In this document: positions 10,221 through 22,633 of the stretch, one piece after another
How the letters are laid out: every line of letters begins with the position of its first letter
Position numbering within the stretch: the stretch's first letter is position 1
DNA from: Synechococcus sp. MIT S1220
GTDB taxonomy: Bacteria > Cyanobacteriota > Cyanobacteriia > PCC-6307 > Cyanobiaceae
Length of the DNA stretch: 24,000 nucleotides
Assembly (NCBI RefSeq): GCF_047303025.1
Contig: NZ_CP138939.1
Location: 1,379,518 to 1,403,517 of the forward strand
Direction: 5' to 3'
Program-made: the position numbers and the translations under genes
The notes under the pieces: generated by a model
What the model was told of the DNA's origin: nothing
The model's database searches: none
Seen by the model: the letters and a program-made list of their open reading frames with translations, nothing else

Positions 10221-10352
10221 AAGCCTTGATTATGTCGGCAACGATTATTGAGGTAAGAAGAAACGAATCCAATTTTCTACAATATCTACCAATAACTTCT
10301 CTATCTGAATGAACCCTGGATCAAAATTTCAAATTAATTTCACTTAAAATAG

Positions 10353-12314
10353 TTAAGCGTCGATAACCTTGATTTGGTCAGGCGCTGAGAAGATATTGCT
10401 GTCAAGCTGGAGCAATTCCTGCGTATTTGCTGTGAAGTTTCCAGCCGGAGCATACACCAACTTACTGGTATCTGTTGCAAAGGCCAACAGCCCTTGATTA
10501 CCAGTCGGGAAGACTTGGCTTTTGATCTCAGCATCAAGACCTACGATCAAAATGTTGGCCATTGAAGGTGAAGCCCCTGCCTCAATGATAGTTTTTTGCT
10601 GAACAGTCGCACCTGCGGTGTAATTTGGGAATGCCCCATCGTTGATCTGAATCAGGTCAAAGGAGCCAGCCTGTTTTGTGGCTGCATTTGCGCCCACATA
10701 CCCAGTAATCGTATCCCTGCTAGTCGTCGTTGTTTGACCCGTTAAATCAATCGTGTTTTGCACATTCTGATTGGGAGAAGTGATGATGTCCTGGCCAGTT
10801 CCTCCTGCAATCGTGGATTGTCCAGCGGTGGAACCCCTGAGATTGTCAATGCCAGGGCCACCGAGGAGATGGGAATCACCAGACAATCCTTCCACGGTGT
10901 CAGGGCCAAGAGTGCCCTCAATTTTTATACGGTCTCGATTTGTTGGCAGGCCTGAGTCAGCATTGTTTAAATTGACGCCGTGTTGAGATCTAATTTCGGA
11001 AAAATCATAATTTGCGATCCCAGGTGTACCCCAATTCTGATACGTTGTTGCGGCAGTGAAAGTGCTTGGTGAAAAAGTGAATGATTTTCCATTTGCGATT
11101 CCACTCAGATCCAACTCAGTGCTTCCATCATTTGATGCCTCAATTTTAAAATCTTCAATATTGATAAACTTGGCGCCAAAAGCGGTAAATATGCTATCCA
11201 GCTTGTTGAACTGGTTGCTTTTGATCACGATGGTGTCTTTGTCTGAGGGAGAAGGATCTTGAATGGTGTCATCGTTAATCGTTCCAATCTCACATGTAAT
11301 CGAATCGCTAAAGGTTGTGGTTTCGGGGGGGAGAATGTCTTTTCTGACAATTTTTGTAAGGGTGGCTCCTGCTTTCGTGATACTCAGGGTTAATGGAAGT
11401 GATGTTTGTTGTTTTTTATCCCCACTTTCAGTAGCAACAACGGTGAAACTATAGCTATCTTTGCTAGCGATGTTGAAATCATCCTGGGTGCTCACAGCGC
11501 CAGATGTGGCATCAATCTTGAATGAAGCTGCATCTGTTCCACTTAGTGAGAAGGTGACTTCCCCACTGTTATCTGTTGCAGATGCGTTATAAATTATGGA
11601 TCCTATGGGACTATCCTCTTTAATAGGGGTCACCGTTATTGGTGAAGTGAAGCTAGGAGGCAGGTCTTTATTGATTGAAAGAGTTAGCGGACTGCTTGTT
11701 GTTGAATGTCCTTCGCTGTCTGTGGCGATAACATTAAAGAGATAACTTGATTTTGCGTCATGATCAGTATTCTCCATAATCGCCACCTCACCATTATTGG
11801 GATTGATGGCTAAAAAATTGGCATCTTGTCCAGTTAATGAATAGATAAGGGGAGTATTGTTACCTGTGGCAGCGGCCAGATAGATGGCTGTGCCAGAGGT
11901 TGAGCCTTCAGTGATGGAATCAACTGATGTTGGCGAAGTAAAAACAGGACTAGTAGTCTCCTGGGTAATCAGAGTTCCTTGGGTAAAGAAAGAACGGGAG
12001 GAATTCTTCTTTTTTTTGGCAAGTCGAAATCTCTTAAATTGTTTGAGAGGAGAAAATGTAAATTCTTCTCCGCCTGTGAACAAATTAGCCTCATTGTTAT
12101 CGTTGAGACTTTCAAGGGTGATTTTCAGGCTAGCTTTTTTCCTCTTTCTCTTGCCTGGTAGCTCACCTTTCTCAAATCTAAAAACAAATCTCCCGTTGAA
12201 ATCACCAGTATGTGTAATTGTATCTAATATTTGATTTCCTTTTTTGTTGGAAAGCGTTGCTTTAAGGTCCGAATAATCTTTAAAGCCTTTCAGTTTTGCG
12301 ACAAGTTTCATCAT
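10353..12314 (-). CDS. Large secreted-type protein: Lys-rich N-terminal domain, two tandem cadherin-like domains, RTX-type Ca-binding repeats, C-terminal tail
   Basis: 653 aa. Two ~95-aa repeats are roughly one-third identical by eye: aa 123-216 (nt 11667-11948) and aa 219-314 (nt 11373-11660). They share the pattern FTSP..V..I.E.S..G..IY.A.AT....YSL.G.DA..F.I....G.V...Y.F.V.AT...L.L.I.K. GGxGxDxU nonapeptides LLGGPGIDNL and IAGGTGQDII lie at aa 476-512 (nt 10779-10889). The N-terminus (MMKLVAKLKGFKDYSD) has no hydrophobic signal peptide, which fits a C-terminally signalled type I secretion substrate. Confidence 0.6.
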   Translation of the reverse strand: MMKLVAKLKGFKDYSDLKATLSNKKGNQILDTITHTGDFNGRFVFRFEKGELPGKRKRKKASLKITLESLNDNNEANLFTGGEEFTFSPLKQFKRFRLAKKKKNSSRSFFTQGTLITQETTSPVFTSPTSVDSITEGSTSGTAIYLAAATGNNTPLIYSLTGQDANFLAINPNNGEVAIMENTDHDAKSSYLFNVIATDSEGHSTTSSPLTLSINKDLPPSFTSPITVTPIKEDSPIGSIIYNASATDNSGEVTFSLSGTDAASFKIDATSGAVSTQDDFNIASKDSYSFTVVATESGDKKQQTSLPLTLSITKAGATLTKIVRKDILPPETTTFSDSITCEIGTINDDTIQDPSPSDKDTIVIKSNQFNKLDSIFTAFGAKFINIEDFKIEASNDGSTELDLSGIANGKSFTFSPSTFTAATTYQNWGTPGIANYDFSEIRSQHGVNLNNADSGLPTNRDRIKIEGTLGPDTVEGLSGDSHLLGGPGIDNLRGSTAGQSTIAGGTGQDIITSPNQNVQNTIDLTGQTTTTSRDTITGYVGANAATKQAGSFDLIQINDGAFPNYTAGATVQQKTIIEAGASPSMANILIVGLDAEIKSQVFPTGNQGLLAFATDTSKLVYAPAGNFTANTQELLQLDSNIFSAPDQIKVIDA

Positions 12315-12504
12315 TTTTCAAGTTTCTAGAACCTTGCTCCTTTTTAGCTGTGAAACGAGCTTGTGTCCTCTGCGCTTAAGAATCAATAGCGATCAATTCT
12401 GAACTTGTTCCACTCGTTACAGAGTAGTCGTTCCTTCAGGGGTGGAGAGTGACCACAAAGGATCAAATCAGCGACTTGTTCGCCAGCCAGGAGGTATGAG
12501 GGGT

Positions 12505-12666
12505 ATGGACGAAATCTCAGGACGCGGACTCGGATTGTTTCAAGGGGTCGGATCTCTGTTGAAAGTCACGTTCCACGGCAGATTTGAGAAGCTTCTTTGC
12601 ACTTTTCTATCTGAAGCGATGGCTCTGCTGCGTTACGCCATCGTTATGAGCATCCGGCTGAACTGA
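12505..12666 (+). CDS. Candidate small ORF (53 aa), hypothetical; may instead be non-coding
   Basis: AGGAGG at 12489-12494 lies 10 nt upstream of the ATG at 12505. Translation: MDEISGRGLGLFQGVGSLLKVTFHGRFEKLLCTFLSEAMALLRYAIVMSIRLN. The frame is open from a GTG at 12442 (74 codons). No family recognised. It lies in a ~52% GC patch of an otherwise AT-rich intergenic region. Confidence 0.2.
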   Translation: MDEISGRGLGLFQGVGSLLKVTFHGRFEKLLCTFLSEAMALLRYAIVMSIRLN

Positions 12667-12780
12667 TCACTCCCAGTTGATTTTGGTAGCAAATTTCGAA
12701 TCAACCTTCGACGCAAATATGATGAATAAAATAAGAAGCCAACGAGGTTGCACGAGTTTGTATCATATGACGAAGGCAGC

Positions 12781-12807
12781 GATTATTTTTTTGTCAAAAT
12801 AATAATC
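12781..12807. promoter_or_regulatory. AT-rich inverted repeat / Fur-box-like operator candidate upstream of the TonB-dependent receptor
   Basis: GATTATT (12781-12787) and AATAATC (12801-12807) are exact inverted repeats with a 13-nt spacer. AATAATAATC (12798-12807) matches 9 of 10 positions of the AATGATAATC core of the Fur consensus GATAATGATAATCATTATC. The best 19-mer alignment is only 11/19. It ends 16 nt before the receptor start. Confidence 0.25.
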
Positions 12808-12822
12808 TATTGAAATGAGGCC

Positions 12823-15039
12823 TTGGGTAATAATTTACTTCGCTTGATTTTAGCTTTTTTTCAGTCCTCTTCTTCGTTGCCGATTGCCTTTGCCTATCTC
12901 TGTATTGTTTTTACTCCAATCCCTTCATTCGCAGAAGAAGAATTGAGAATTATCACCGTTGGCGAACAGCTTGATGACCCTAGTTACGAGCAACCTGCCA
13001 GTTTTACGGTGATTGATCGTGAAGAAATGGACCGGCGAGGGGTGATTAATTTTAAGGATTTGTTTCGCTACCAACCTGGGATTGAGGTGCGCCGAAGTAG
13101 GCGGTATGGAATCGAAGATATCAATATTCGCGGTTTGGATGGCAATCGCATTCTGTATGAGCTGAATGGTGTTCGCTTGCCGGAACGGTTTGAGTTTGGC
13201 CCTTTCCGTCAGACGCGAGGCCAGTGGATTGACTTATTGAATATTGGTGACGTTGATATTATCCAAGGCCCTGCATCAGTCCTGTATGGAGATGGGGCCC
13301 TTGGAGGTGTTGTCTCTTTTTCATCCCTTCATCCAGAAGTATTTTTAGGAGAGGATGATCGTGCTGCTCAAGCGGTTGTCATGCTCAGCTCAGAGAACAA
13401 CAGCGTGTCTGAACTTGTTCGATTTGCAGCTGAGGATTCAAACGGAATTATGGGTTTGTTGAGTGTCAGTCGTTCTGACTCAGAAGAGCCCCATCCGATC
13501 GCTGATTCTGATTTGGTTAATCGCCAAAACAATGACGGTACTGGTTTTAATGCACAAATCATGATTCCATTTTCCGAAGATTTGAAATTTCGATTAAATA
13601 CAGTTGGTTCCAGGCAAATTACAAGAACAACAATTGGCCAAGGTAATTTGCCATCAGGAGAATGGGGCTACGTCGTGAATCAAGATAAGGAAACAATCAC
13701 AAATCAACTTTGGCAACTCGTCGCTGCGTTGGAATTTGATTCCTTGATGGAGAATCCACTTTTTTCAGGGATGAAGTTTAATATCTATTTTCAAGATGCC
13801 TCTCAAGTGGATCAGAGGTTTGAGCATCGCACGACCACGTCTGCAGAGTTGGAGCGGAATGCAAAGACCACGGCAGTGAGTCAAGTTTCTGGTTTTAATC
13901 TTTCACGGAAACAGGAAGTGTTATTTGGCGACCTGATTCACGAGCTAAATTATGGAGTTGATTATTCAAGAACCTTCAATTCGCGCCGCAGAGATCGCAT
14001 TCAGACAAATGTAGAAGATGGTTCGAAGACCAGAGAGTTGCCGCTTGGCAACTTTCCGGTCAAAGATTATCCTGACTCACTGACGAATCGTCTTGGAGCA
14101 TTTTTACAAGACACGTTGATAATTGATTCCCTAAAATTGATTGCAGGGCTCCGTTATGAATCATATTTGATGAATCCACTGTCAGATTCAACTTTTGAAA
14201 AAAATGGAGCATTGGCTGGTAGCTCCGATGCAATCACTCCAACTTGGCGCTTGGCTGCACTATGGAGTTTGGATGAATCACATGTTATTTGGATGAATTA
14301 TAATCGATCATTCAGAATGCCTCTTTATAGTGAAATTAACAGTGGATTTACGAATTTGAATTCAGGGTATCAGACAATCAGTAATCCAGATCTTAAATCT
14401 GAAACTGGCGATGGACTTGAATTAGGTTTGAGAGCGCATTATGAGCATTTTAAATATAGTTTTACTGGGTATTACAACAGATACAGTAATTTCATCGAAG
14501 CAGGGCGATTTGTTGGCACGAATTGTGAATTTGAGCAAGGCCGATGTGTTGCACAATATCAAACTGTCAACGCAGAGCAAGCTGTCACCTATGGTGTTGA
14601 GGGTAGTGCTGAGTACTCAACTGTTCCGGATGGCTATGGCTTGAAGATTCGATCAGGGTTCAATTATACGGTTGGCAATGATCTGGAGATCAACCAGCCA
14701 CTTACAAGCATTGATCCTCCCAAGGCAATCGTTGCTGTTGGATATCATGAGCCTGATGATGGCTGGTCGGCTGAGTTGATTGGCACAGCATTCGCACGTG
14801 CCCGGGTTCCAGCTGATAGTGAACTTTTCATCCCTTCTTCTTATATTCGCTGGGATTTACTGGTTTCCTGCGCCGTTGGCGCAAACTTTAAAATAAACTT
14901 TGGAGTTCTCAATCTATTTGATCACAGGCAGTATTCATATGCTGATACAAAGTATATCTTAGATACTGGATATCGAGATATGAGCGGGTTTTCATTACCA
15001 GGTCGTGCCTATCAAGTTGGTTTCACTCTGCGCTTGTAG
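12823..15039 (+). CDS. TonB-dependent outer-membrane receptor (738 aa)
   Basis: TTG start. Signal-peptide-like N-terminus ending in PSFA/EEE. TonB-box-like LRIITVG. Plug-domain motifs (FKDLFRYQPGIEV, INIRGLDGNRILYELNGVRL, IDIIQGPASVLYGDGALGGVVSF). Barrel motifs (FRMPLYSEIN, ISNPDLKSETGDGLELG) and a terminal GRAYQVGFTLRL. The last residue is Leu rather than the usual aromatic. Confidence 0.85.
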   Translation: MGNNLLRLILAFFQSSSSLPIAFAYLCIVFTPIPSFAEEELRIITVGEQLDDPSYEQPASFTVIDREEMDRRGVINFKDLFRYQPGIEVRRSRRYGIEDINIRGLDGNRILYELNGVRLPERFEFGPFRQTRGQWIDLLNIGDVDIIQGPASVLYGDGALGGVVSFSSLHPEVFLGEDDRAAQAVVMLSSENNSVSELVRFAAEDSNGIMGLLSVSRSDSEEPHPIADSDLVNRQNNDGTGFNAQIMIPFSEDLKFRLNTVGSRQITRTTIGQGNLPSGEWGYVVNQDKETITNQLWQLVAALEFDSLMENPLFSGMKFNIYFQDASQVDQRFEHRTTTSAELERNAKTTAVSQVSGFNLSRKQEVLFGDLIHELNYGVDYSRTFNSRRRDRIQTNVEDGSKTRELPLGNFPVKDYPDSLTNRLGAFLQDTLIIDSLKLIAGLRYESYLMNPLSDSTFEKNGALAGSSDAITPTWRLAALWSLDESHVIWMNYNRSFRMPLYSEINSGFTNLNSGYQTISNPDLKSETGDGLELGLRAHYEHFKYSFTGYYNRYSNFIEAGRFVGTNCEFEQGRCVAQYQTVNAEQAVTYGVEGSAEYSTVPDGYGLKIRSGFNYTVGNDLEINQPLTSIDPPKAIVAVGYHEPDDGWSAELIGTAFARARVPADSELFIPSSYIRWDLLVSCAVGANFKINFGVLNLFDHRQYSYADTKYILDTGYRDMSGFSLPGRAYQVGFTLRL

Positions 15040-15964
15040 TTGTTGGCTGTTTCTGCGCGCCTGTCTGAGCCGGCAAGGTGTAACGCTGCTTTTCTTGTTT
15101 CTCAATTGCTTTTTGGTGCTTGTCACTCCCTTTGATCACGATGCTGTAACTGACTGGTACCCGCGCACCACCGTCGATGGCTTTGAATCGTGATCGACGT
15201 CCAGCATCCAACGCTGCATTGTCGATTTCAGGATTACCGCTCGATCGTTCCAGTTGTACGTTTTGCACCCGTCCATTGCTGTTGATTGTGATCAGAACTC
15301 TGGGTTCTCCTTCAATGCCTCGTCGCAGTGCACGTTTGGGGTATCGAGGTTTTGGGCAAGACAGACATTCCACAACGCGGCGAGGTTTGACCTTGCTTGT
15401 TTCCCCCACCTGGATTGACGACGTCTGCGGCGAGTGTTGCTGTCCAGTGGTCATCCCCTGCTTGACATTGTTGGATTGTTCTTGATCCTGTTTCCTCTTA
15501 GAGCTGGATGGCTTCTCACGAGTCGACGCGATGGCCGACGATGGTTGTTCCTGCAGTGGTTTGGTATCTGAACCATGGCGCTTGCTGGAATGTTTGGGCG
15601 ACTGTCTCAGGATTGGAGCTGGGGTCCGGCTAAGTTGCGGGGCTGCAGTGGACGTGGGCGCAGGAGTTGGTTGTTCAGCGTTGGGTGGTTGTATCCGATC
15701 AGATAACGCAACAGCCTTTTGTTGGATCGGTTCGTCTTGCTCATTCTCTTGCCGATTGGCTTGCTCGGTGATGGCCTGATCTTCTGGTCGTTGTTTCGCT
15801 TCCTTCGTACTCGGTAAAGCAGCCAACTCAATGATCACGACGTTGGATTGGTTTTTCGGGAGTAAGGCATACTCTCTTTTTTCTCTGATCAAGAAGAGCA
15901 GAAGCGCATGAATGGAAATTGAAATGATTAAATAAAAGATTACATTGGATTTTAAATGTTTCAT
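15023..15964 (-). CDS. tonB: TonB energy transducer
   Basis: N-terminal membrane anchor (VIFYLIISISIHALLLFLI), a long Pro/Gln/Ser/Lys-rich spacer, and a C-terminal TonB_C-type domain (PRYPKRALRRGIEGEPRVLITINSNGRVQNVQLERSSGNPEIDNAALDAGRRSRF). Last gene of the exbB-exbD-tonB string. Its 3' end overlaps the receptor 3' end by 17 bp, convergently. Confidence 0.8.
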   Translation of the reverse strand: MKHLKSNVIFYLIISISIHALLLFLIREKREYALLPKNQSNVVIIELAALPSTKEAKQRPEDQAITEQANRQENEQDEPIQQKAVALSDRIQPPNAEQPTPAPTSTAAPQLSRTPAPILRQSPKHSSKRHGSDTKPLQEQPSSAIASTREKPSSSKRKQDQEQSNNVKQGMTTGQQHSPQTSSIQVGETSKVKPRRVVECLSCPKPRYPKRALRRGIEGEPRVLITINSNGRVQNVQLERSSGNPEIDNAALDAGRRSRFKAIDGGARVPVSYSIVIKGSDKHQKAIEKQEKQRYTLPAQTGAQKQPTTTSAE

Positions 15965-15974
15965 TATTTGGCGG

Positions 15975-16397
15975 TCATTTTCTGGCTTTTGTCTGAGGGC
16001 TTGTGACTAGGCCAATGGATTCAAATTCTGCTAATTTAGCCTTTTCAATGATACTGAAAATGACACCATATTCAATGGTCTGCTCGGCATCAATGAGTAG
16101 TTTCTTTGATGCATTTTGCTGCGTGATGATGCTGAGATCGTTGAGGAGTGTGGTTTGATTGCTTGGTTCGCTATTGATAAAGAGCTCTCCATCCTTTTTG
16201 ATGCTGACAATGACGTCATCCGAGCCGATCGTTGTGGTAGTCGTCGCCTTTGGTCGATTGATCTCCACTACTCTGTTGCTACTGAGTATCAGGCTGGAAA
16301 GAACAAAAAAAAGAAGTATGGCGAAAAGTACGTCAATCATGGGAAGAATATTGATGGTCAGATCGTTCTCCTGGTCAAATTCGTTGCCAAAATCCAT
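15975..16397 (-). CDS. exbD: ExbD/TolR-family biopolymer transport protein
   Basis: 140 aa with INILPMIDVLFAILLFFVL, a single N-terminal transmembrane helix, followed by a periplasmic domain. Lies between exbB and tonB. Confidence 0.8.
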   Translation of the reverse strand: MDFGNEFDQENDLTINILPMIDVLFAILLFFVLSSLILSSNRVVEINRPKATTTTTIGSDDVIVSIKKDGELFINSEPSNQTTLLNDLSIITQQNASKKLLIDAEQTIEYGVIFSIIEKAKLAEFESIGLVTSPQTKARK

Positions 16398-16403
16398 GGT
16401 GAG

Positions 16404-17045
16404 TTAATGTTGAATTAAAAACTGTTCTTCAAGGCTGGTTGCAAACAATTGAAGTTCGTGTTTTTGCGTTCGACTGAAACTTCGAAATAAGTTAGTAAAA
16501 GCAAGCGTAATCATTGCAATCACCAATCCAATAGCAGTTGAAACAAGAGCCTCACTGATCCCGGATATTACTACCTCTGCATTCTCCAAAGGTTGTTCAA
16601 GCCCCAGCCCTTCGAAGGAACGTATCAGACCCAGAACGGTACCCAGCAGACCCAGTAATGGCGAAATCGCGACGATGGTTGACAACGTTGCGTCGTATCG
16701 ACGCAACGGAGGACTTACACGTTGAAAACCAATTTTGATACGCCGCTGAAACGATTCAAAATCTCTTGCCTTGGTTTGAATGACAGAGCGATAGAAGATC
16801 ACCAACGGATGATTCCGTGGCTCAAAATTCAATACCGTTTCCTCTGGATAAGAAGTATGGAAATGGGCCAAGAGATTTTCTCTGACGGCTGTTTGCCTGG
16901 TAAGAGTCGTCATCCAGAAGACGAGTCGTTCAAGAATCAATGCCAGTGCAATGATGGAAACGAATCCCAGGGGGATCGAAACTACGCCGCCGATGTTGCT
17001 GAGATCCATTGCGGATGCAAAATAAAGAGCCTCAGACCAATACAT
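16404..17045 (-). CDS. exbB: ExbB/TolQ/MotA-family proton-channel protein
   Basis: 213 aa with three predicted transmembrane segments and the C-terminal family motif ISGISEALVSTAIGLVIAMITLAFTNLF. Directly upstream of exbD. Confidence 0.8.
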   Translation of the reverse strand: MYWSEALYFASAMDLSNIGGVVSIPLGFVSIIALALILERLVFWMTTLTRQTAVRENLLAHFHTSYPEETVLNFEPRNHPLVIFYRSVIQTKARDFESFQRRIKIGFQRVSPPLRRYDATLSTIVAISPLLGLLGTVLGLIRSFEGLGLEQPLENAEVVISGISEALVSTAIGLVIAMITLAFTNLFRSFSRTQKHELQLFATSLEEQFLIQH

Positions 17046-17083
17046 GTCCTGAGGCGCCTGGATGCAGAGACTATCTGCCTATT

Positions 17084-18370
17084 TTAGATGTCGGCTCCAA
17101 ATGCCCAATCACTGGGAGATAATTTAGCCACGATGTCGTAGCTGTCACCATGAGGCTTAATGATATAAGCCGTTCCTTGAGGATCAGGGTAGATATTTGT
17201 GGTGCCTTCAAAGGGATCGTCATGACCGACAAGAACAGTATTTTTCTTTTTTGGTGTTTTTGATAACATCGGTGCAATTCTGTCGTGATATATATCTAAT
17301 TGCTCGTCAGTATAGTCTTCGTAAGGCAAGAAGTTTAAATCATCAATGGCTTTCCCTTTGCCGAATGCTATTTGCGCTGTGTCGATGGCTCGTTGATATT
17401 GACTATTGCGGACGTTTCCGATCACAATGTCGTTGGCTTTGATGCCTTTTTTAATGTCGTTTGCTTCTTGAATCCCCTGGGCGCTCAGATTCCTTTGGGT
17501 TGATGGATCATTCAAATCCAGATTTGGATCAGCTTGATCGGCATAATCCGTTTCTGTTGTGGTATGTCGTAGATAGATTACATGGCCCCCTTTTTTCAAT
17601 TTCTTAAGCAATTTCTTATCGCTCAACTTGTTCTCGAAGGCATCGTTGTTGAACTCCGCTTCTGAGAAATTATTGGGTTTGCTCTTGGGACTGCCAAAAA
17701 TATCGTCTCCATTCAGATCGATGGAATGTTTCTTTTCCATCTTATGAATCCATTTGTTTGATGCTGCTTCCTCTTGTGCAGAAGCCATTCCTTCTTCCTC
17801 GCTCATTGCGAAGGCTTGCTTTCTGAATTTGTTTTTTTCATCCTTAAAAACAACGTAAGTTGTCCTTTTGTTTTTGATAATACCGGTCACTTCACCTTCC
17901 CTTGATCCACCCGGACGCGGAGCGTCGAACAGGCTGGTATAGATATTTTTCTCGTCATTCATCCACAGTGGCTTGAACATTTTGGGTTCTGCCATGCGTG
18001 CAAGACCGTATTCGGCTAGGCCGATGCGATGGGTTCCACCCAGGTAGTACAGGCCCATTCCTGAGTTACCGCGTCGCCCGTCGTGATAAGTGACGTAGAC
18101 AGGATCTCCATCACCAGCGCCTGGAGCCCCCCCAGCACCTGGAGGCCCCCCAGCACTTGGAGGCCCTCCAGCACTTGGAGATTCTCCACCCGAATTTCCA
18201 GCCGCTGGAGGTCCTGCAGAGGGAGGAGTGGATTCATCGTCTTTTTCGTCGTCTTCAGTTGCATTACAGAACTCGAAGCCATCCACAGGAGGATGTCCAT
18301 CAGGAAGGCAACCACCTCCATCAGGTGAAACGGGTGGATGGCCTTCAGGTAATGTGATGCCTGTAGACAT
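17084..18370 (-). CDS. Multidomain protein: duplicated GHPPV/Cys motif, Gly/Pro repeat linker, unknown middle domain, C-terminal histidine-phosphatase (His_Phos_1/PGAM-like) domain
   Basis: 428 aa. The C-terminal domain (aa ~262-420, nt 17111-17587) carries VIYLRHTTTE (RHG-type catalytic motif), NLSAQGIQEA, NSQYQRAIDTAQI and LVGHDD (second catalytic His). The N-terminus is MSTGITLPEGHPPVSPDGGGCLPDGHPPVDGFEFC followed by (PSAGG)n. No signal peptide is evident. It is the first gene of the minus-strand string ending in exbB-exbD-tonB, with a 38-nt gap to exbB. Confidence 0.55.
   Translation of the reverse strand: MSTGITLPEGHPPVSPDGGGCLPDGHPPVDGFEFCNATEDDEKDDESTPPSAGPPAAGNSGGESPSAGGPPSAGGPPGAGGAPGAGDGDPVYVTYHDGRRGNSGMGLYYLGGTHRIGLAEYGLARMAEPKMFKPLWMNDEKNIYTSLFDAPRPGGSREGEVTGIIKNKRTTYVVFKDEKNKFRKQAFAMSEEEGMASAQEEAASNKWIHKMEKKHSIDLNGDDIFGSPKSKPNNFSEAEFNNDAFENKLSDKKLLKKLKKGGHVIYLRHTTTETDYADQADPNLDLNDPSTQRNLSAQGIQEANDIKKGIKANDIVIGNVRNSQYQRAIDTAQIAFGKGKAIDDLNFLPYEDYTDEQLDIYHDRIAPMLSKTPKKKNTVLVGHDDPFEGTTNIYPDPQGTAYIIKPHGDSYDIVAKLSPSDWAFGADI
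18114..18185. repeat. 18-bp imperfect tandem repeat x4, in frame within the phosphatase-family gene
   Basis: On the + strand: CCAGCGCCTGGAGCCCCC / CCAGCACCTGGAGGCCCC / CCAGCACTTGGAGGCCCT / CCAGCACTTGGAGATTCT. On the - strand these encode the hexapeptide units ESPSAG-GPPSAG-GPPGAG-GAPGAG. Confidence 0.85.
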
Positions 18371-18682
18371 TGAATTGAAAACACTTAGTCATATTTATGC
18401 TTAAGGACCCCCAAGAAGAATGCCACACTTTATTTCACAGCCGCATGTATAAAAATTTACGGATTGAATATTGATTTCGCCTCGTATTGGCTTTTTGTAG
18501 CATGACTCTGGTCAACTGCATTTGCTCTAAGTCAATCAGGTTGCTCCCTTTATATAAAGAGCCTCGAGCCATCGATGAAATCGTTACTTCAAACTCTTTT
18601 CATTGGGTGGGTCTGGTCCAGATTCCTGGCATTGAGGATTGAAATTGCAAAGGATACTCGTAATCACATTGCCGGTTTGTCC

Positions 18683-19663
18683 ATGAAATTCATTTCATTT
18701 CTTGGATTGCTGTGGATATTAGCCATTGTTTTTGTTTTATCATTATGTGTCGGTGATTCGCCGATTGGGTTTGAGGACCTGTGGGATTATGTCTCAGGAA
18801 CTTCCTCCTCAGAGACAACTGTCTTGGTGATTCGTGATATTCGCTTGCCTCGCACCTTGGCAGCCTTGTTGACGGGATCTGCTCTGGGCGTTTCAGGGGC
18901 AATGCTTCAAGGAATGCTTCGTAATCCGTTGGCCAGTCCATTCTTGCTCGGCATTTCTTCGGGCTCAGGAGTCTGTGTCGTTATTCTTTTTTCCTTGAAT
19001 AGTTTGGCTTATTGGATCCCACTGGGTGCATGGTTGGGTGCTGTGGTGTCGGCGTTAATCGTTTTTTGTATTGCTTATGATCAAAAGAGGATTTCCCTGG
19101 AACGATTGATTCTCTCAGGAGTCGCTGTCAGTAGTGTTTTGGGATCTGTGCAAGCTATTTTTCTCTTGCGCTCGGATGATACACGCATTCAGAATTCTTT
19201 AACCTGGTTGTCCGGAACATTGGCTGGCCGTGAGTGGGGCGATTTAACTTTTACATGGATTCCAATCGTCGTATGTTTATTGTGCTCCTTTGTTTTCGCT
19301 AAACAACTTAATTTGGCATTGCTTGATGATGATACCAGCCGATCCTTAGGCCTGTCTTTAACACGACTCAGGATTTTGATTGGTGTTTGCGCAACTCTGC
19401 TGACATCCTGTTCTGTATGTATTGCGGGACTGGTCGGTTTTGTCGGTTTGGTGATTCCTCACATAGCACGTTTACTCTGCGGTGGTAATTTTGTTTATGT
19501 TTTGCCATTCTCTGGGGTCTTGGGCGCACTCACTGTTGTAGTAGGTGATCTGATCGCAAGAATGTATCTCTGGGAGCTTCCAGTCGGTATTGTGACAGCA
19601 CTATTTGGTTCGCCATTTTTTATCTATCTATTGAGAAAACGCCGAATGGAAGGGAGTGTCTAA
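18683..19663 (+). CDS. ABC importer permease, FecCD/BtuC/HmuU family (single permease gene)
   Basis: Family motifs IRLPRTLAALLTGSALGVSGAMLQGMLRNPLASPFLLGISSGSG, GLVGFVGLVIPHIARLL and ELPVGIVTALFGSPFFIYLL. The ORF is open from the ATG at 18575. The ATG at 18683 (MKFISFLGLLWILAIVFVLSLCVGD...) gives a 326-aa protein with the usual family architecture. Confidence 0.85.
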   Translation: MKFISFLGLLWILAIVFVLSLCVGDSPIGFEDLWDYVSGTSSSETTVLVIRDIRLPRTLAALLTGSALGVSGAMLQGMLRNPLASPFLLGISSGSGVCVVILFSLNSLAYWIPLGAWLGAVVSALIVFCIAYDQKRISLERLILSGVAVSSVLGSVQAIFLLRSDDTRIQNSLTWLSGTLAGREWGDLTFTWIPIVVCLLCSFVFAKQLNLALLDDDTSRSLGLSLTRLRILIGVCATLLTSCSVCIAGLVGFVGLVIPHIARLLCGGNFVYVLPFSGVLGALTVVVGDLIARMYLWELPVGIVTALFGSPFFIYLLRKRRMEGSV

Positions 19664-20421
19664 TGGAGGATCTATCTTTATCTGACGTCTCTTATTCTAT
19701 AAATTCTAATTCAATCCTTGAGAAGATTTCGTTTTCTGTTGGTCCTGGGGATTGGCTTTGTATCGCTGGATGCAATGGTTCAGGAAAATCCACGTTGTTG
19801 AGATTGATGGCAGGTTTAATTGGTCCTAGTCATGGTTGCATTCAATTTGGGGGCACAGCTTTTAAGGACTTGCCTGATAAAGATAAAAAAATTTCGATTC
19901 TCTCCCAGCGTTCCAATGTCAATGCATGCTTGACGGTTCAAGATCTTGTGTGTTTAGGACGTTATCCCTATTTGCCGAGCTGGGGTGTCCGTTTTTCCGA
20001 GGCTGATTGGGAGCAGGTTAGTTATGCCATCGATTTTGTTGGTTTGAATGATCTGCGTGATCGTTCGCTTGATTCATTGTCTGGTGGAGAAAGACAGCGA
20101 GCTTTTTTAGCCCTTTCTTTGGCACAGAATGGATCCATTCTGCTTTTGGACGAACCTACCAATCATCTGGATATTGTTGCACAAAATCAGATTTTGAATC
20201 TTTTGGAGAAAATGGCCAATTCCGGAAAGATTATTGTTTCCGTATTCCATGATCTGAATCATATTTCGAGGTATTCCTCTCATCTTGCCTTGATGCGCCA
20301 AGGTCAGTTGCTTGAGTTCGGTCCCACGGATCATGTGTTTCGTTCACAGTCGTTGAGTGAAACATTTGGTCTGGCTATTCGTGTTGTTGAGCATGAGGGG
20401 CAACGGTGCGCTCTGTATTGA
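19663..20421 (+). CDS. ABC importer ATPase, FecE/FhuC/BtuD/HmuV family
   Basis: Walker A GCNGSGKST, signature LSGGERQR, Walker B ILLLDEPTNHLD, H-loop VFHDLN. The start overlaps the permease stop by 1 nt (TAATG at 19661-19665). Confidence 0.9.
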   Translation: MEDLSLSDVSYSINSNSILEKISFSVGPGDWLCIAGCNGSGKSTLLRLMAGLIGPSHGCIQFGGTAFKDLPDKDKKISILSQRSNVNACLTVQDLVCLGRYPYLPSWGVRFSEADWEQVSYAIDFVGLNDLRDRSLDSLSGGERQRAFLALSLAQNGSILLLDEPTNHLDIVAQNQILNLLEKMANSGKIIVSVFHDLNHISRYSSHLALMRQGQLLEFGPTDHVFRSQSLSETFGLAIRVVEHEGQRCALY

Positions 20422-20461
20422 GACATTACTTGTTGGATAGCTCAATCGTGGCTGGTCACGG

Positions 20462-21412
20462 ATGAATATATGGTGTTGTTTTTATCACATTGTCATGCTT
20501 ATTTTGTTCGATCGGGGGTCAGTTATTGGTATAAAATTAATTCCATTGGTTTATGAAATTGTGGCTTATTTGTATCCATTCCTTTCGGTTTTGCTCGTTT
20601 TCTTTTGGCTTCCACCTTTGCGGGCGCAAGGGGAGATCGACATCAGTCGTTCTGGCCGACAGGTGAGCCGTGTGGTTGCCTTGACTTCACTGTCTGCTGA
20701 CATGGTTGTGTCACTGGATCCTGGAGTCCTGGTTGGTGTTCCAGGCACTTCTCTGACCAACAACGACTCGCGTTTCAAAGGTATGAAGCGCATTTCTTCT
20801 GGCAGAAGTCAGCCAAGCCTGGAGGCCATTGTGGCCCTTAAGCCTGATCTTGTGGTGGGCGCAGATGGTTTCCACTCCAAGATCTTGAATGGTTTGAATG
20901 GCTTAGGCATTGCAACTCTTTCTTTAAGGATTGATCGCTGGAATCGTCTGGAGGAAGCGGCTCAGTTGCTGCGTCAGCGTATTTCCAATTCCGATGTTCT
21001 CGAACAAAAACTGGCTGACATCTGCCCTGCTGTCTCTGGTGTTGCGAAGCCGTCGCGATCGCGTGTGTTGATTCTTGTTGGGGTGTCGCCCAAGCTTTCG
21101 CCTTCTTCAGATAGTTGGTCTGGGTCTCTGCTTGCCAGGCACGGTCTAATCAACGTCACTCAGGGGCTTTCGGGGGGGAGTGAGTTTTCGGGCTATATCA
21201 CCATGTCAAACGAGCGTTTGTTGACCGTTGATGCTGACACGGTTCTTGCTGTAAACCCTTCAGGTGGTGCAAAACAATTGCGACAATTAATTCGGCAATT
21301 TTTACCTAAAGTCAAGTCAAAAAATGTTGTCAAAATGGATTATTATGGATTGATCAATCCTGGAAGTTTAGGAAGCATTGCCTCTGCTTGTAAGCGTCTT
21401 CGGGCTTTGTAA
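20462..21412 (+). CDS. Periplasmic substrate-binding protein, cluster A / FecB-BtuF-HmuT type
   Basis: RVVALTSLSADMVVSL..., LEAIVALKPDLVVGA... and VLILVGVSP... are typical of metal-chelate binding proteins. The start is uncertain: ATG at 20462, ATG at 20495 or GTG at 20561. The last gives VAYLYPFLSVLLVFFWLPPLRAQG, a plausible signal peptide. Confidence 0.7.
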   Translation: MNIWCCFYHIVMLILFDRGSVIGIKLIPLVYEIVAYLYPFLSVLLVFFWLPPLRAQGEIDISRSGRQVSRVVALTSLSADMVVSLDPGVLVGVPGTSLTNNDSRFKGMKRISSGRSQPSLEAIVALKPDLVVGADGFHSKILNGLNGLGIATLSLRIDRWNRLEEAAQLLRQRISNSDVLEQKLADICPAVSGVAKPSRSRVLILVGVSPKLSPSSDSWSGSLLARHGLINVTQGLSGGSEFSGYITMSNERLLTVDADTVLAVNPSGGAKQLRQLIRQFLPKVKSKNVVKMDYYGLINPGSLGSIASACKRLRAL

Positions 21413-21495
21413 ACATATGGCTGGAGGCGGAGTGGATGTTGTTCAAGCTTGCTCGTCTCACTCTTGTAGGTTAAAGACCAGCGGTATGGCCTCAT

Positions 21496-21512
21496 ATGGG
21501 TTGGAAGGAGCG
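21496..21512 (+). repeat. Right copy of the imperfect direct repeat flanking the island
   Basis: ATGGGTTGGAAGGAGCG begins at the ATG of the acRAF-like gene. See the left copy at 10191-10211. Confidence 0.45.
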
Positions 21513-21744
21513 CAGGAGGCCGGTGTGTCTTGAAAGGCGCTATGAGTTTGAGAGCTACAACGCGACACGGGATTTCCTGGATCGGCTTGGGCTTCATAGT
21601 GAGGCCACGCAGCGCTTTCCGGATATCAGCTTTGGTCGAACATATGTGAACATCACACTCCGTCCTGAGGATGACGGAGATTCCGCCCAGATAGCTGATG
21701 CGGATCATTCGTTCGCGGCTGAGATCGATGCCCTGCTCGATTGA
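21496..21744 (+). CDS. Pterin-4a-carbinolamine-dehydratase-like protein lacking the catalytic histidines (acRAF-type Rubisco assembly factor candidate)
   Basis: 82 aa. [47 protein letters not shown] aligns with the PCD fold, but the DHHPE motif reads QRFPD and the downstream STH reads RPE. Position next to cbbX and the cso genes fits the alpha-carboxysome-associated PCD-like family. Confidence 0.7.
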
Positions 21745-22633
21745 TCTTGCCGCTGCTTATGCCGATTCCGGTGTGGCTGAGGTGCTGGAGCAGCTTGATC
21801 TTGAGCTCATCGGCTTGACTCCGGTCAAGACTCGGATCCGCGAAATCGCAGCCTTATTGCTTGTGGATCAGGCCAGGCAGCAGCTGGATTTGCCCAGCAC
21901 GGCGCCCAGCCTGCACATGTCATTCACCGGTCGTCCCGGTACGGGTAAGACGACCGTGGCCCAGAGGATGTCGCAGATTCTGCACCGGCTTGGTTACCTG
22001 CGTAAAGGCCACGTGGTCACGGCGACCCGAGATGATCTGGTGGGGCAGTACGTGGGCCATACAGCTCCAAAGACGAAGGAGATGCTCAAGCGTGCTCAGG
22101 GTGGTGTGCTGTTCATCGATGAGGCCTACTACCTCTACAAACCAGACAATGAGCGTGACTACGGCGCTGAGGCGATCGAAATCCTCCTGCAGGAAATGGA
22201 GAATCAGCGCAGTGATGTGGTGGTGATCTTTGCGGGGTACAAGGATCGAATGGAGACTTTCTACAGCTCCAATCCGGGCCTTTCCTCACGGGTGACACAT
22301 CATCTCGATTTCCTTGACTACAGCAATGACGAGCTGATGGCCATTGCCGGATTGCTTCTTGAAGCGCAGCACTACCGCTTCAGCCATGAAGCCTGTAACG
22401 CGTTCTCCGACTACATCTCGCTCAGGCGAGCATTGCCGTTCTTCGCCAATGCTCGTTCCATCCGCAATGCCATTGATCGGGCCAGGTTGCGTCAGGCCAA
22501 CCGCCTTTTCGCTCGGATGGGGGAGGAGCTCACCAAGGAGGACCTGATCACGATTGAAGCAGCAGATATCAAGGGGAGTCGGGTGTTTCAGGGGCAGGTT
22601 GAGGGGCACCACCCAGTGGCACAAAGTGACTGA
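21728..22633 (+). CDS. cbbX: CbbX AAA+ protein (red-type Rubisco activase family)
   Basis: Near-colinear with my recollection of the Rhodobacter CbbX sequence (unchecked). Shared blocks: [43 protein letters not shown], Walker [12 protein letters not shown], Walker [44 protein letters not shown]. The ORF is open from 21698. The ATG at 21728 (MPCSIDL...) fits homolog N-termini and overlaps the preceding gene by 17 nt. Confidence 0.9.

What the first reader, a model, noticed from the sequence alone, without database searches (positions are those of the whole stretch)
17084..18370. Novel multidomain histidine-phosphatase-family protein heads the exbB-exbD-tonB operon
The first gene of the minus-strand string combines four parts. 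(1) A duplicated motif LPEGHPPV...CLPDGHPPV...FC rich in His and Cys, a possible metal or cofactor site. (2) An acidic stretch plus (PSAGG)n Gly/Pro linker. (3) A ~170-aa middle region with no motif I recognise (DPVYVTYHDGRRGNSGMGLYYLGGTHRIGLAEYGLARM...). (4) A C-terminal His_Phos_1-type domain with both catalytic His contexts (LRHT, VGHD) and the RA..TA helix motif. I know of no ExbB-ExbD-TonB operon led by such a protein. With only a 38-nt gap to exbB, co-transcription is likely. It may process a phosphorylated substrate, act on a phospho-signalling partner (SixA-like), or be unrelated cargo.
Basis: partly seen in the sequence, partly recalled or inferred. Interest (0 to 1): 0.65.

Follow-up and report, generated by a model that had tools for sequence, protein, structure and literature searches.

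The report
Phosphatase-like gene in cyanobacterial iron-uptake island
The gene is real and its last domain is a histidine-phosphatase-type enzyme domain, but it sits in an already described iron-uptake island of marine Synechococcus; what is new is that this phosphatase family, usually exported, lies next to iron-stress genes in many cyanobacteria.

Summary
It has about 50 full-length homolog clusters (E to 1e-216), all from marine metagenomes or Synechococcus single-cell genomes.

The C-terminal domain belongs to NCBIfam NF004841 (E 4e-73), an uncharacterised branch-1 histidine-phosphatase family. The predicted fold matches SixA, RosC and CobC, and R268/H269/R327/H383 are intact.

The surrounding cluster is not new. 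It is the published picocyanobacterial TonB-dependent "siderophore uptake" island, here inserted between chpX and cbbX. This gene is not discussed in the papers I read.

Every long-form ortholog with enough flank lies in that cluster, in one of two arrangements:
- heading exbB-exbD-tonB, as in the window;
- as its own unit, divergent from the receptor gene.

Short (~240 aa) relatives all carry an N-terminal hydrophobic leader, most with a lipobox. In 58% of 81 genome loci they sit within 5 kb of futA/idiA, fur, dps, piuC, isiA, exbBD or receptor genes.

Best reading: an exported, metal-independent phosphatase that assists iron acquisition. The substrate is unknown and export of the long form is unproven. 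Two orthologs have lost their catalytic residues but keep the middle module. A SixA-like signalling role and an unrelated-cargo role are both unlikely.

The parts
17084..18370 (-). Whole gene: 428-aa multidomain histidine-phosphatase-family protein (long form, 'type A')
   Evidence: ORF. Homologs to E 1.5e-216, 54-76% identity. Alignment A1.
18260..18370 (-). N-terminal motif region (residues 1-37): LPEGHPPV...C21 / LPDGHPPV...C36. No hydrophobic signal sequence.
   Evidence: Conserved in 9 type-A homologs. A single copy of the GHPP(V/I)DG(Y/F)..C motif also opens the RTX protein P0129. Max hydropathy is low. Predicted disordered.
18110..18259 (-). Acidic stretch plus Gly/Pro low-complexity linker (residues 38-87). 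Includes the 18-bp tandem repeat at 18114-18180.
   Evidence: pLDDT below 50. Length and composition vary between homologs; many type-B forms have His/Asp-rich linkers.
17693..18109 (-). Middle beta-rich module (residues 88-226) ending in a D-L-N-G-D-D Ca-loop-like motif. No Pfam family.
   Evidence: pLDDT 70-83 in the full model. 27 positions are invariant across 33 long forms and are kept even in the catalytically dead orthologs. The remote relatives are tandem-repeat, signal-less proteins, some with RTX repeats.
17087..17623 (-). C-terminal histidine-phosphatase (branch 1) domain (residues 250-428). Catalytic R268-H269 (17564-17569), R327 (17390-17392), H383 (17222-17224). E351 is a possible acid.
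   Evidence: NCBIfam NF004841 E 4.2e-73, residues 229-423. Foldseek: SixA 1ujb E 1e-6, RosC, phosphoserine phosphatase, CobC. Profile alignments place the RA..TA Arg and the GH His. Conservation.
17046..17083 (-). 38-nt gap between the gene and exbB
   Evidence: No minus-strand terminator-like site.
16404..17045 (-). exbB
   Evidence: PF01618 E 1.6e-26
15975..16397 (-). exbD
   Evidence: PF02472 E 4.5e-21
15023..15964 (-). tonB
   Evidence: PF03544 E 1.5e-15
12823..15039 (+). TonB-dependent outer-membrane receptor, convergent with tonB
   Evidence: Plug plus beta-barrel. Best NCBIfam matches are the heme/hemoglobin/transferrin receptor subfamilies, below their cutoffs.
18371..18574 (.). Divergent promoter region between the gene and fecCD. 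Contains a conserved GTA-N8-TAC palindrome at 18447-18460.
   Evidence: Sequence. Alignment of the type-A upstream regions.
18575..21412 (+). ABC importer: FecCD permease (18575-19663), ATPase (19663-20421), periplasmic binding protein (20462-21412)
   Evidence: PF01032, PF00005, PF01497

Best explanation
The gene encodes an accessory enzyme of a horizontally acquired, TonB-dependent iron-uptake island in a marine Synechococcus.

Proposed mechanism, step by step:
1. In the window it is probably transcribed with exbB-exbD-tonB from the promoter region it shares with the divergent fecCD-ATPase-binding-protein operon. The 38-nt gap and the absence of a terminator are shown; co-transcription and iron regulation are inferred.
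2. The protein acts outside the cytoplasm, in the periplasm or at the cell surface. It would get there by a route other than Sec, which is inferred and is the weakest step.
3. The N-terminal His/Cys motif and the Ca-loop beta module target or anchor the protein, or bind substrate. This is inferred from their conservation and from their reuse in an RTX protein.
4. The C-terminal domain is a metal-independent branch-1 histidine phosphatase. It would hydrolyse a phosphomonoester through a phospho-His269 intermediate, with R268, R327 and H383 forming the phosphate pocket. This chemistry is family knowledge; the residues are shown to be present.
5. The most likely purpose is to make iron transportable. 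The enzyme would strip phosphate-ester groups from an iron-binding organic ligand or complex, so that Fe(III) or the processed chelate can be taken up by the receptor and ABC importer here, or by FutA/IdiA systems in other cyanobacteria.

The substrate is unknown.
For: Domain identity:
- NF004841 E 4.2e-73.
- 24 of 26 relatives hit PF00300.
- Fold matches to SixA, RosC, phosphoserine phosphatase and CobC at E 1e-6 to 1e-5.
- Catalytic R/H/R/H are conserved in 33 of 36 long forms and are invariant in the 26-sequence alignment A2 (25 short forms plus the window's C-terminal domain).

Linkage of long forms to the TonB cluster:
- Window.
- L001-L004.
- Synechococcus single-cell genomes L008-L010.
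- L087-L089, L091, L096-L102, L106.
- L115.
- There are no counter-examples among contigs with at least 1.5 kb of flank.

Family-wide iron link:
- 47 of 81 genome loci have at least one iron family within 5 kb: FutA/IdiA 16, Fur 13, receptor 12, PiuC-like 11, Dps 9, ExbB and ExbD 8 each, IsiA-like 6, flavodoxin 5.
- The FutA identity is confirmed against solved structures.
- No phosphate-acquisition genes appear among the recurrent neighbours.

Extracytoplasmic action:
- 60 of 60 short forms have an N-terminal hydrophobic leader; 38 also match a lipobox pattern. This comes from my own hydropathy/regex test, not a signal-peptide predictor.
- The Cys pair co-varies perfectly: CC 60, PQ 20, FG 1, and no case in which only one Cys is kept.
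- P0055 is two phosphatase domains fused to RTX repeats.
- Relatives of the middle module are Ca-loop/RTX proteins without N-terminal signals.

Iron context of the cluster: the receptor and the binding protein are reported as iron-limitation-induced in a Prochlorococcus strain, and the cluster's abundance tracks low dissolved iron (PMC9122953; PMC10119275).
Against: - No activity, localisation or expression data exist for this gene.
- The long form has no Sec or lipoprotein signal, and the window copy has lost the putative disulfide pair (P/Q instead of C/C). A cytoplasmic role after import cannot be excluded.
- Two type-A orthologs lack catalytic residues and have 15-17 changes at otherwise invariant phosphatase-domain positions, while the middle module is untouched. 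One of them sits at the orthologous site. Catalysis is therefore dispensable in some lineages.
- From my own knowledge, none of the known marine siderophores I can recall carries a phosphate ester.
- The iron link is not universal. A Prochlorococcus-like contig has a short form between psbA and amt. A Corynebacterium locus examined by Pfam shows no iron genes, and three further Corynebacterium loci had none in the tally.
- The neighbour HMMs were built from the inner 5 kb of the loci. This biases the comparison between the inner 5 kb and the 5-10 kb ring.
Confidence: 0.45

Rival explanations
1. Iron-sparing enzyme swap. The protein is an exported, metal-free phosphatase expressed under iron stress to replace Fe/Ca-dependent PhoX-type alkaline phosphatase for phosphorus scavenging. 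This would parallel flavodoxin replacing ferredoxin. It would not serve iron uptake itself.
For: Histidine phosphatases need no metal (family knowledge). The family sits among general iron-stress genes, including isiA-like (6 loci) and flavodoxin (5 loci), not only among transporters. Short forms have export-type leaders. PhoX is known in marine Synechococcus (PMC10119275).
Against: The commonest neighbours are uptake components: futA 16 loci, receptor 12, piuC 11, exbBD 8. The long form is strictly linked to the receptor/TonB cluster in two arrangements, which this idea does not predict. No pst/pho genes recur nearby.
Confidence: 0.15
2. Mainly a binding protein. The protein would act as a surface or secreted partner of the receptor that captures or presents the substrate, as TbpB, HasA or SusD do. 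The phosphatase fold would serve as an anion-binding pocket and the middle module as the essential part.
For: P0004 and P0007 have lost catalytic residues but keep all 27 invariant middle-module positions, and P0007 is at the orthologous locus. In type-B loci the gene is divergent from the receptor gene. The receptor's best family matches are the protein-ligand and heme receptor types. The N-terminal motif, linker and module form a cassette that is reused in another protein.
Against: 33 of 36 long forms, and every row of the 26-sequence alignment A2 (25 short forms plus the window domain), keep the full catalytic set. This argues for selection on chemistry. There is no evidence of contact with the receptor.
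Confidence: 0.12
3. Cytoplasmic processing enzyme. The long form would have lost export and would act on the imported chelate or a metabolite after ABC import, as the Fes esterase or FhuF-type reductase do.
For: No signal peptide in any of 45 long forms. The Cys pair is lost in the window and in 20 sequences.
Against: Most type-B long forms keep the Cys pair. The middle module and its relatives carry Ca-loop motifs and RTX repeats typical of extracellular proteins. A double-phosphatase RTX fusion exists.
Confidence: 0.1
4. PmrG/Ais-like dephosphorylation of envelope (lipopolysaccharide) phosphates, which would change Fe(III) binding at the cell surface.
For: Weak NCBIfam PmrG hits: E 0.0019 for the window protein and 1.2e-4 for P0065. 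PmrG is a periplasmic branch-1 histidine phosphatase tied to Fe(III) (my own knowledge).
Against: The scores are far below the cutoff (17.7 against 170 bits). From my own recollection, marine Synechococcus lipopolysaccharide was reported to lack heptose and phosphate.
Confidence: 0.05
5. SixA-like phosphohistidine phosphatase acting on a signalling partner, or a CobC-like step in corrinoid salvage with the cluster importing B12.
For: JGI names homologs 'SixA'. SixA and CobC are among the top fold matches. The ABC genes are BtuCDF-like in type.
Against: SixA model: 14 bits against a cutoff of 74.5. Relatives have export-type leaders. There is no HPt or two-component gene in the cluster. No NCBIfam CobC (alpha-ribazole phosphatase) family appeared at E <= 0.1. 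No cobalamin riboswitch or any Rfam hit in 9500-22500. The receptor matches BtuB only at E 6e-17, against 1e-78 for heme-type families.
Confidence: 0.04
6. Hitch-hiking cargo with no functional tie to the transport genes.
For: The island is horizontally acquired (GC 0.43 against 0.60). Some family members lie away from iron genes.
Against: Linkage is kept in two different gene orders and in all informative long-form loci. The short-form family shows an independent iron association.
Confidence: 0.06

Closest known systems
NCBIfam NF004841 (PRK06193.1-1), 'histidine phosphatase family protein' / hypothetical protein; short exported forms in cyanobacteria
   Same: The C-terminal 200 residues match above the curated cutoff. 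They are about 50% identical to proteins from Leptolyngbya PCC 7376, Acaryochloris and others, with the same catalytic residues.
   Different: The window protein lacks the signal peptide or lipobox. It carries about 230 extra N-terminal residues (His/Cys motif, linker, beta module) and has lost the conserved Cys pair. The family itself has no known function, and no paper in the searched library mentions PRK06193.
Picocyanobacterial TonB-dependent 'siderophore uptake' gene cluster (fecDCAB-tonB-exbBD; Hogle 2022 PMC9122953, Dore 2023 PMC10119275, and the earlier work they cite)
   Same: Same gene set (receptor, TonB, ExbB, ExbD, FecCD, ATPase, binding protein) in a low-GC island of marine Synechococcus.
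   Different: The searched main text of PMC9122953 never mentions a phosphatase. The main text of PMC10119275 mentions only alkaline phosphatases, in its phosphorus section. The rows of its gene-cluster table that I read name only the transport genes. Neither text mentions this gene. The substrate of the cluster is stated to be unknown.
SixA (phosphohistidine phosphatase), solved structure 1ujb
   Same: Best fold match (E 1e-6, TM 0.66 on the target). Same superfamily chemistry.
   Different: SixA model score is 14 bits against a cutoff of 74.5. SixA is a small cytoplasmic signalling enzyme, whereas the relatives here have export-type leaders.
PmrG/Ais, periplasmic lipopolysaccharide heptose(II)-phosphate phosphatase
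   Same: A periplasmic branch-1 histidine phosphatase connected to Fe(III) biology (my own knowledge). Weak profile hit.
   Different: Far below the family cutoff. The likely substrate is absent in marine Synechococcus (my recollection). PmrG is not linked to TonB clusters.
Accessory hydrolases of iron-uptake clusters (Fes, IroD/IroE, Cee esterases), and receptor partners (TbpB, HasA)
   Same: The same logic: a non-transporter protein encoded inside a TonB-dependent uptake cluster that processes or presents the substrate.
   Different: No sequence or fold relation. Those are alpha/beta-hydrolase esterases or dedicated binding proteins. A histidine-phosphatase fold in this role has not been described, to my knowledge.

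Membership tests
Histidine phosphatase superfamily, branch 1 (Pfam PF00300 His_Phos_1) | Profile match at or above the gathering score | tested here: inconclusive
   The window protein scores 12.5-14.9 bits (E 0.11 / 0.021) against a cutoff of 21.7; only residues 267-337 align. In contrast, 24 of 26 rows of A2 (the window's own domain is one of the two that do not) match at E <= 0.01, best 4.9e-8. Many relatives also carry precomputed PF00300 hits.
Histidine phosphatase superfamily, branch 1 (Pfam PF00300 His_Phos_1) | Catalytic core: Arg-His of the RHG motif, a second Arg in S..RA..TA, a second His in a GH motif | tested here: met
   R268-H269 (LRHT; Thr replaces the usual Gly), R327 (QYQRAIDTA) and H383 (VGHDD). 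These are invariant or nearly invariant in A1 and A2. The RA..TA Arg aligns to yeast phosphoglycerate mutase and the GH His to Sts-2.
Histidine phosphatase superfamily, branch 1 (Pfam PF00300 His_Phos_1) | Alpha/beta fold of the dPGM/SixA type | tested here: met
   The AlphaFold2 C-terminal domain reaches pLDDT 96. Foldseek gives 123 solved-structure matches at E <= 0.001; all 50 listed are histidine phosphatases or proteins that contain such a domain.
Histidine phosphatase superfamily, branch 1 (Pfam PF00300 His_Phos_1) | Phosphatase or mutase activity through a phospho-histidine intermediate | not testable with these tools
   Needs an enzyme assay.
NCBIfam NF004841 (PRK06193.1-1) | Score above the curated cutoff over most of the model | tested here: met
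   245.5 bits against 178; residues 229-423 cover model positions 32-228 of 232. The model's N-terminal ~30 positions are not matched; in P0065 the match starts at residue 10, inside its leader.
SixA phosphohistidine phosphatase (TIGR00249) | Equivalog score above cutoff; cytoplasmic protein acting on an HPt domain | tested here: not met
   14 bits against 74.5. Relatives have export-type leaders. No HPt or two-component gene lies nearby.
PmrG/Ais (NF052369) | Equivalog score above cutoff | tested here: not met
   17.7 bits against 170.
Picocyanobacterial TonB-dependent siderophore-uptake cluster | Receptor, TonB, ExbB, ExbD, FecCD permease, ABC ATPase and binding protein adjacent to each other. 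Hogle et al. required at least five of the six partner families next to the receptor. | tested here: met
   All seven are found at 12823-21412. The criterion is quoted.
Picocyanobacterial TonB-dependent siderophore-uptake cluster | Located in a genomic island of a marine Synechococcus or Prochlorococcus | tested here: met
   GC is about 0.43 against 0.60 in the flanks. The flanks carry csoS2, csoSCA, ndhF/D-type genes, chpX, cbbX and CLC. The same insertion site is seen in L002 and L115. Homologous loci occur in Synechococcus single-cell genomes.
Picocyanobacterial TonB-dependent siderophore-uptake cluster | Transport of a siderophore | not testable with these tools
   The substrate is unknown even in the literature. 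The receptor's best profile matches are heme/hemoglobin/transferrin types, below their cutoffs.

The most novel reading that the evidence does not exclude
The long-form protein is a secreted or surface-bound partner of the TonB-dependent receptor. It would define a new mode of iron acquisition in ocean picocyanobacteria: a phosphatase-fold protein, exported by a route other than Sec, that captures or dephosphorylates an iron-carrying organophosphate ligand and hands iron or the processed chelate to the receptor. This would reveal the unknown substrate class of the 'siderophore' cluster. More broadly, the NF004841 family would be a general cyanobacterial iron-acquisition phosphatase working with FutA/IdiA.
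Probability: 0.15. Interest if true: 0.8.

Novelty: new variant of a known kind. Interest (0 to 1): 0.45.

Why it matters
Picocyanobacteria carrying this island are a large share of the population in iron-poor ocean layers. The authors who mapped the island state that its substrate is unknown (PMC9122953). A conserved enzyme-like gene inside the cluster gives a concrete biochemical handle on that question.

The family-wide adjacency of exported histidine phosphatases to futA/idiA, fur, dps, piuC and exbBD in many cyanobacteria suggests a phosphate-ester step in iron acquisition or iron-stress physiology. I found no description of such a step in the searched literature.

The claim is still guilt by association, and the C-terminal domain belongs to an already catalogued family, although that family is uncharacterised.

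Tried and rejected
- Pfam on the whole protein and on the separate segments gave no hit at threshold. The middle region has no family.
- A sequence search of the whole protein against solved structures returned only a spurious pTAC3 match at E 0.01. A family-profile search gave only weak phosphoglycerate mutase and Sts hits.
- AlphaFold2 on the middle module alone gave mean pLDDT 48.8. Its Foldseek search had no match at E <= 0.001 (best 0.14, beta-propeller-like proteins) and is treated as uninformative.
- A profile-profile comparison of the middle module with the W_rich_C domain protein P0139 gave 46% probability over 64 columns, mostly the Ca-loop. This is not enough to claim homology.
- A Fur-box consensus scan of the upstream regions found at best 11-12 of 19 matches, which is not convincing.
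- The GTA-N8-TAC palindrome is conserved in type-A upstream regions and absent in type B. It is noted but not interpreted.
- Literature searches for histidine phosphatase with TonB, cyanobacteria and iron, and for PRK06193, found nothing relevant. The supplement of Hogle et al. held as text has no gene-level mention.
- tRNA and Rfam scans of the island found nothing.
- A Corynebacterium homolog locus showed no iron genes by Pfam.
- I ran no further search on the N-terminal modules.
Full report
**Observation**

The minus-strand ORF 17084..18370 (428 aa, ATG start) exists as described. It has these parts:
- Two LP(E/D)GHPPV units, each followed by a Cys (C21, C36).
- An acidic stretch followed by a Gly/Pro linker. 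The linker is encoded by an 18-bp tandem repeat at 18114-18180.
- A conserved beta-rich middle region.
- A C-terminal alpha/beta domain with YLRHTTTE, QYQRAIDTA and VGHDD.

exbB starts 38 nt downstream, and no minus-strand terminator-like site lies between the two genes. exbD and tonB follow. A TonB-dependent receptor gene is convergent with tonB. A FecCD permease, an ABC ATPase and a binding-protein gene are divergent from the gene.

The gene is not a chance ORF. About 50 full-length homolog clusters (410-560 aa, 54-76% identity, E down to 1.5e-216) exist. All come from marine metagenomes or Synechococcus single-cell and metagenome-assembled genomes.

**The C-terminal domain**

Pfam His_Phos_1 does not reach threshold on this protein (E 0.11 whole protein, E 0.021 on the C-terminal part). 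Four other lines of evidence identify the domain:
- NCBIfam NF004841 (PRK06193.1-1, 'hypothetical protein') matches residues 229-423 at E 4.2e-73, above its cutoff.
- 24 of 26 rows of the family alignment A2 hit PF00300.
- The AlphaFold2 model of this domain reaches pLDDT 96.
- Foldseek returns SixA (E 1e-6), RosC, phosphoserine phosphatases, a Nostoc SixA-like protein and CobC, and no other fold among the 50 listed matches.

R268/H269, R327 and H383 are conserved across the family. They align with the catalytic Arg and His of solved relatives. The specific families are excluded by score: SixA 14 bits against a cutoff of 74.5, and PmrG 17.7 bits against 170.

**Genomic context**

The window carries alpha-carboxysome genes (csoS2, csoSCA, EutN/CcmL-type and BMC shell proteins), ndhF/ndhD-type subunits and chpX on the left. 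cbbX and a CLC channel gene lie on the right. GC content is about 0.60 in these flanks and about 0.43 from roughly 10.2 to 21.7 kb. This is a low-GC island in a marine Synechococcus.

The island is already described. It is the picocyanobacterial fecDCAB-tonB-exbBD 'siderophore uptake' cluster, whose abundance tracks low dissolved iron (PMC9122953, PMC10119275). The main text of PMC9122953 contains no mention of a phosphatase. PMC10119275 mentions only alkaline phosphatases, in its phosphorus section, and the rows of its gene-cluster table that I read name only the transport genes. The authors state that the substrate is unknown. So the operon context is not novel, but this gene appears to have gone undiscussed.

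**Neighbourhood survey of long-form orthologs**

Every long-form locus with at least about 1.5 kb of flank lies in the same cluster. There are two arrangements.

| | Type A | Type B |
|---|---|---|
| N-terminus | GHPPV..C motif | A different ~80-aa N-terminus, TEYxLYN..., sometimes duplicated |
| Linker | Acidic, then Gly/Pro | Low-complexity, often His/Asp-rich |
| Gene order | binding protein <- ATPase <- FecCD <- / -> gene -> exbB -> exbD -> tonB / <- receptor | exbB-exbD-tonB has its own start; the gene is a separate unit divergent from the receptor gene |
| Loci | window, L001-L003, L087-L089; L115 shows the FecCD side only (its contig ends just after the gene) | L004, L008-L010, L091, L096-L102, L106 |

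'Heads the exbB operon' is therefore arrangement-specific, while linkage to the cluster is general.

**Neighbourhood survey of the wider family**

A scan of one genome per species found 286 relatives. I examined 81 genome loci: the 79 best from that scan plus two found by exact-protein look-up. Most are short (~240 aa) proteins of diverse cyanobacteria.

I clustered their neighbours within 5 kb without prior assumptions and annotated the clusters with Pfam and solved-structure searches. The recurrent neighbours are:

| Neighbour family | Loci |
|---|---|
| FutA/IdiA Fe(III)-binding protein (E 8e-137 to Trichodesmium IdiA) | 16 |
| alpha/beta hydrolase | 15 |
| Fur | 13 |
| Crp-type regulator | 13 |
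| TonB-dependent receptor | 12 |
| PiuC-like 2OG-Fe oxygenase | 11 |
| Dps | 9 |
| ExbB | 8 |
| ExbD | 8 |
| IsiA-like | 6 |
| Flavodoxin | 5 |

- 47 of 81 loci (58%) have at least one iron family within 5 kb, against 23 in the 5-10 kb ring.
- Only 14 (17%) have a TonB system or a receptor.
- No phosphate-acquisition genes recur.

There are exceptions. A Prochlorococcus-like contig carries a Sec-type short form between psbA and amt. Corynebacterium homologs show no iron genes.

One caveat applies. The neighbour profiles were built from the inner 5 kb, so the comparison between the inner region and the ring favours the inner region. No random-gene control was possible.

**Localisation**

- All 60 complete short forms have an N-terminal hydrophobic leader, and 38 also match a lipobox pattern. 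This is my own hydropathy/regex test.
- A Cys pair in the phosphatase domain (D-C-STQR and Y-C-RA) co-varies perfectly: CC 60, PQ 20, FG 1, and no case in which only one Cys is kept. This is the signature of a disulfide and hence of an exported protein.
- P0055 is two phosphatase domains fused to RTX repeats.

The long forms, however, have no signal sequence, and the window copy has the P/Q state at the Cys-pair positions.

A profile search of the middle module across 1.8 billion representative proteins gave only 23 hits. Beyond its own family, these are tandem-repeat proteins rich in DxNxDG Ca-loop motifs, several with RTX repeats and mostly without N-terminal signals. One of them, P0129, comes from a picocyanobacterial contig. 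It shares the N-terminal motif, acidic linker and module colinearly with the window protein (BLASTP E 1e-7), but ends in a second module plus RTX repeats instead of a phosphatase domain.

The N-terminal half therefore looks like a cassette of secreted or surface proteins. Export of the long form by a route other than Sec is plausible but unproven.

**An unexpected point**

Two type-A orthologs, P0004 and P0007, have 15 and 17 substitutions at 76 phosphatase-domain positions that are invariant in the other 33 long forms. The changes include R268, H269 and H383 in P0004, and R268 and R327 in P0007. Both keep all 27 invariant positions of the middle module. P0007 occupies the orthologous locus.

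Catalysis is therefore dispensable in some lineages, and the middle module has a selected function of its own. The window copy keeps the full catalytic set.

**Mechanism**

Best-supported reading (confidence about 0.45): an extracytoplasmic, metal-independent histidine phosphatase that serves as an accessory to iron acquisition. In the window it would be co-expressed with ExbB-ExbD-TonB. It would remove phosphate-ester groups from an iron-binding ligand or complex, so that iron or the processed chelate can be imported.

- Shown: domain identity, catalytic residues, gene order and linkage.
- Inferred: export, iron regulation and the substrate class.

Rivals:

| Rival | Confidence |
|---|---|
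| Iron-sparing replacement for Fe/Ca-dependent PhoX | 0.15 |
| Mainly a binding or receptor-partner role | 0.12 |
| Cytoplasmic processing enzyme | 0.10 |
| PmrG-like envelope dephosphorylation | 0.05 |
| SixA-like signalling or CobC-like corrinoid salvage | 0.04 |
| Unrelated cargo | 0.06 |

The SixA/CobC rival is weakened by the absence of any riboswitch and by the receptor matching BtuB only weakly.

**Verdict**

The finding is a new domain architecture of a catalogued but uncharacterised phosphatase family, sitting inside a known uptake island. Its association with iron genes did not appear in the literature I could search. Interest is moderate (0.45). It offers a testable handle on the unknown substrate of an ecologically important transporter, but everything functional is still inference.

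Noticed in passing
window 10221-21697: An 11.5-kb low-GC island (about 0.43 against 0.60 in the flanks) is inserted between chpX and cbbX, beside the alpha-carboxysome and CO2-uptake genes. The same insertion site is seen in metagenome contigs L002 (ChpXY side) and L115 (cbbX/CLC side). No tRNA gene or Rfam element was found at its borders.
   Followed up: partly
window 10353-12314 (-): A 653-aa protein with cadherin domains (PF00028, E 1.8e-17) and no NCBIfam hit lies at the left end of the island. Homologs sit beside the receptor gene in type-A loci L087 and L088, and L002 has a 474-aa unannotated gene in the same place. It may be a secreted or surface partner of the cluster.
   Followed up: partly
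window 18447-18460: The palindrome GTAAATTTTTATAC (GTA-N8-TAC, the form of NtcA/CRP-family sites) is conserved upstream of the gene in type-A loci (window, L002, L003, L087). It is absent from type-B upstream regions, which instead share TTTGACA, ATGTATCAT and GTATCATT motifs. No convincing Fur box was found. A Crp-family regulator gene lies directly upstream of short-form genes in 13-15 other cyanobacterial loci.
   Followed up: partly
window 12823-15039 (+) and 20462-21412 (+): The receptor's best NCBIfam matches are the hemoglobin/transferrin/lactoferrin and heme receptor subfamilies (E about 1e-78, below their cutoffs), not the siderophore receptor subfamily (E 4e-36). The binding protein's best match is the heme-binding IsdE (E 5e-12). 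This bears on the unknown substrate of the published 'siderophore' cluster.
   Followed up: no
window 15023-15039: The 3' ends of tonB (-) and the receptor gene (+) overlap by 17 nt (convergent overlap). The same tight junction appears in homologous loci such as L002.
   Followed up: no
L116 (P0004), L115 6351-7667 (P0007): Natural orthologs have lost catalytic residues and carry 15-17 changes at otherwise invariant phosphatase-domain positions. The middle module is fully conserved, so these look like pseudo-enzyme variants.
   Followed up: yes
P0055 (Cyanobacteria bacterium J06649_4, partial 602 aa): A protein with two tandem phosphatase domains of this family followed by RTX calcium-binding repeats. 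This implies type I secretion of the domain in some cyanobacteria.
   Followed up: partly
L107 3032-3742: A 236-aa Sec-signal short form of the family lies on a low-GC, Prochlorococcus-like contig between psbA and an ammonium transporter gene, with no iron genes nearby. Many similar 236-aa forms are abundant in marine metagenomes.
   Followed up: partly
L007, L014, L025, L036, L064, L065: Very large RTX/cadherin-type repeat proteins recur next to short-form phosphatase genes in several cyanobacteria (5 loci within 5 kb, 9 in the 5-10 kb ring).
   Followed up: no
L005 11255-12085: In Leptolyngbya PCC 7376 the gene after the phosphatase encodes a 276-aa unannotated lipoprotein whose signal peptide is nearly identical to that of the phosphatase (MKPIKPVELFLALGLATTLGAC against MKSIKPVEMFLALGLAVTIGAC). 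The locus also holds a multicopper oxidase, two ferritin-family genes, a BFD-like ferredoxin, a PiuC-like oxygenase and two OprB porins.
   Followed up: no
window 17119-17148 (-): A promoter-like site (GTGACA, 16-18 nt spacer, TAAATT/AATTAT; 9 of 12 matches) lies inside the 3' end of the gene, upstream of exbB. exbB could therefore also have its own start. The match is no better than chance expectation.
   Followed up: no
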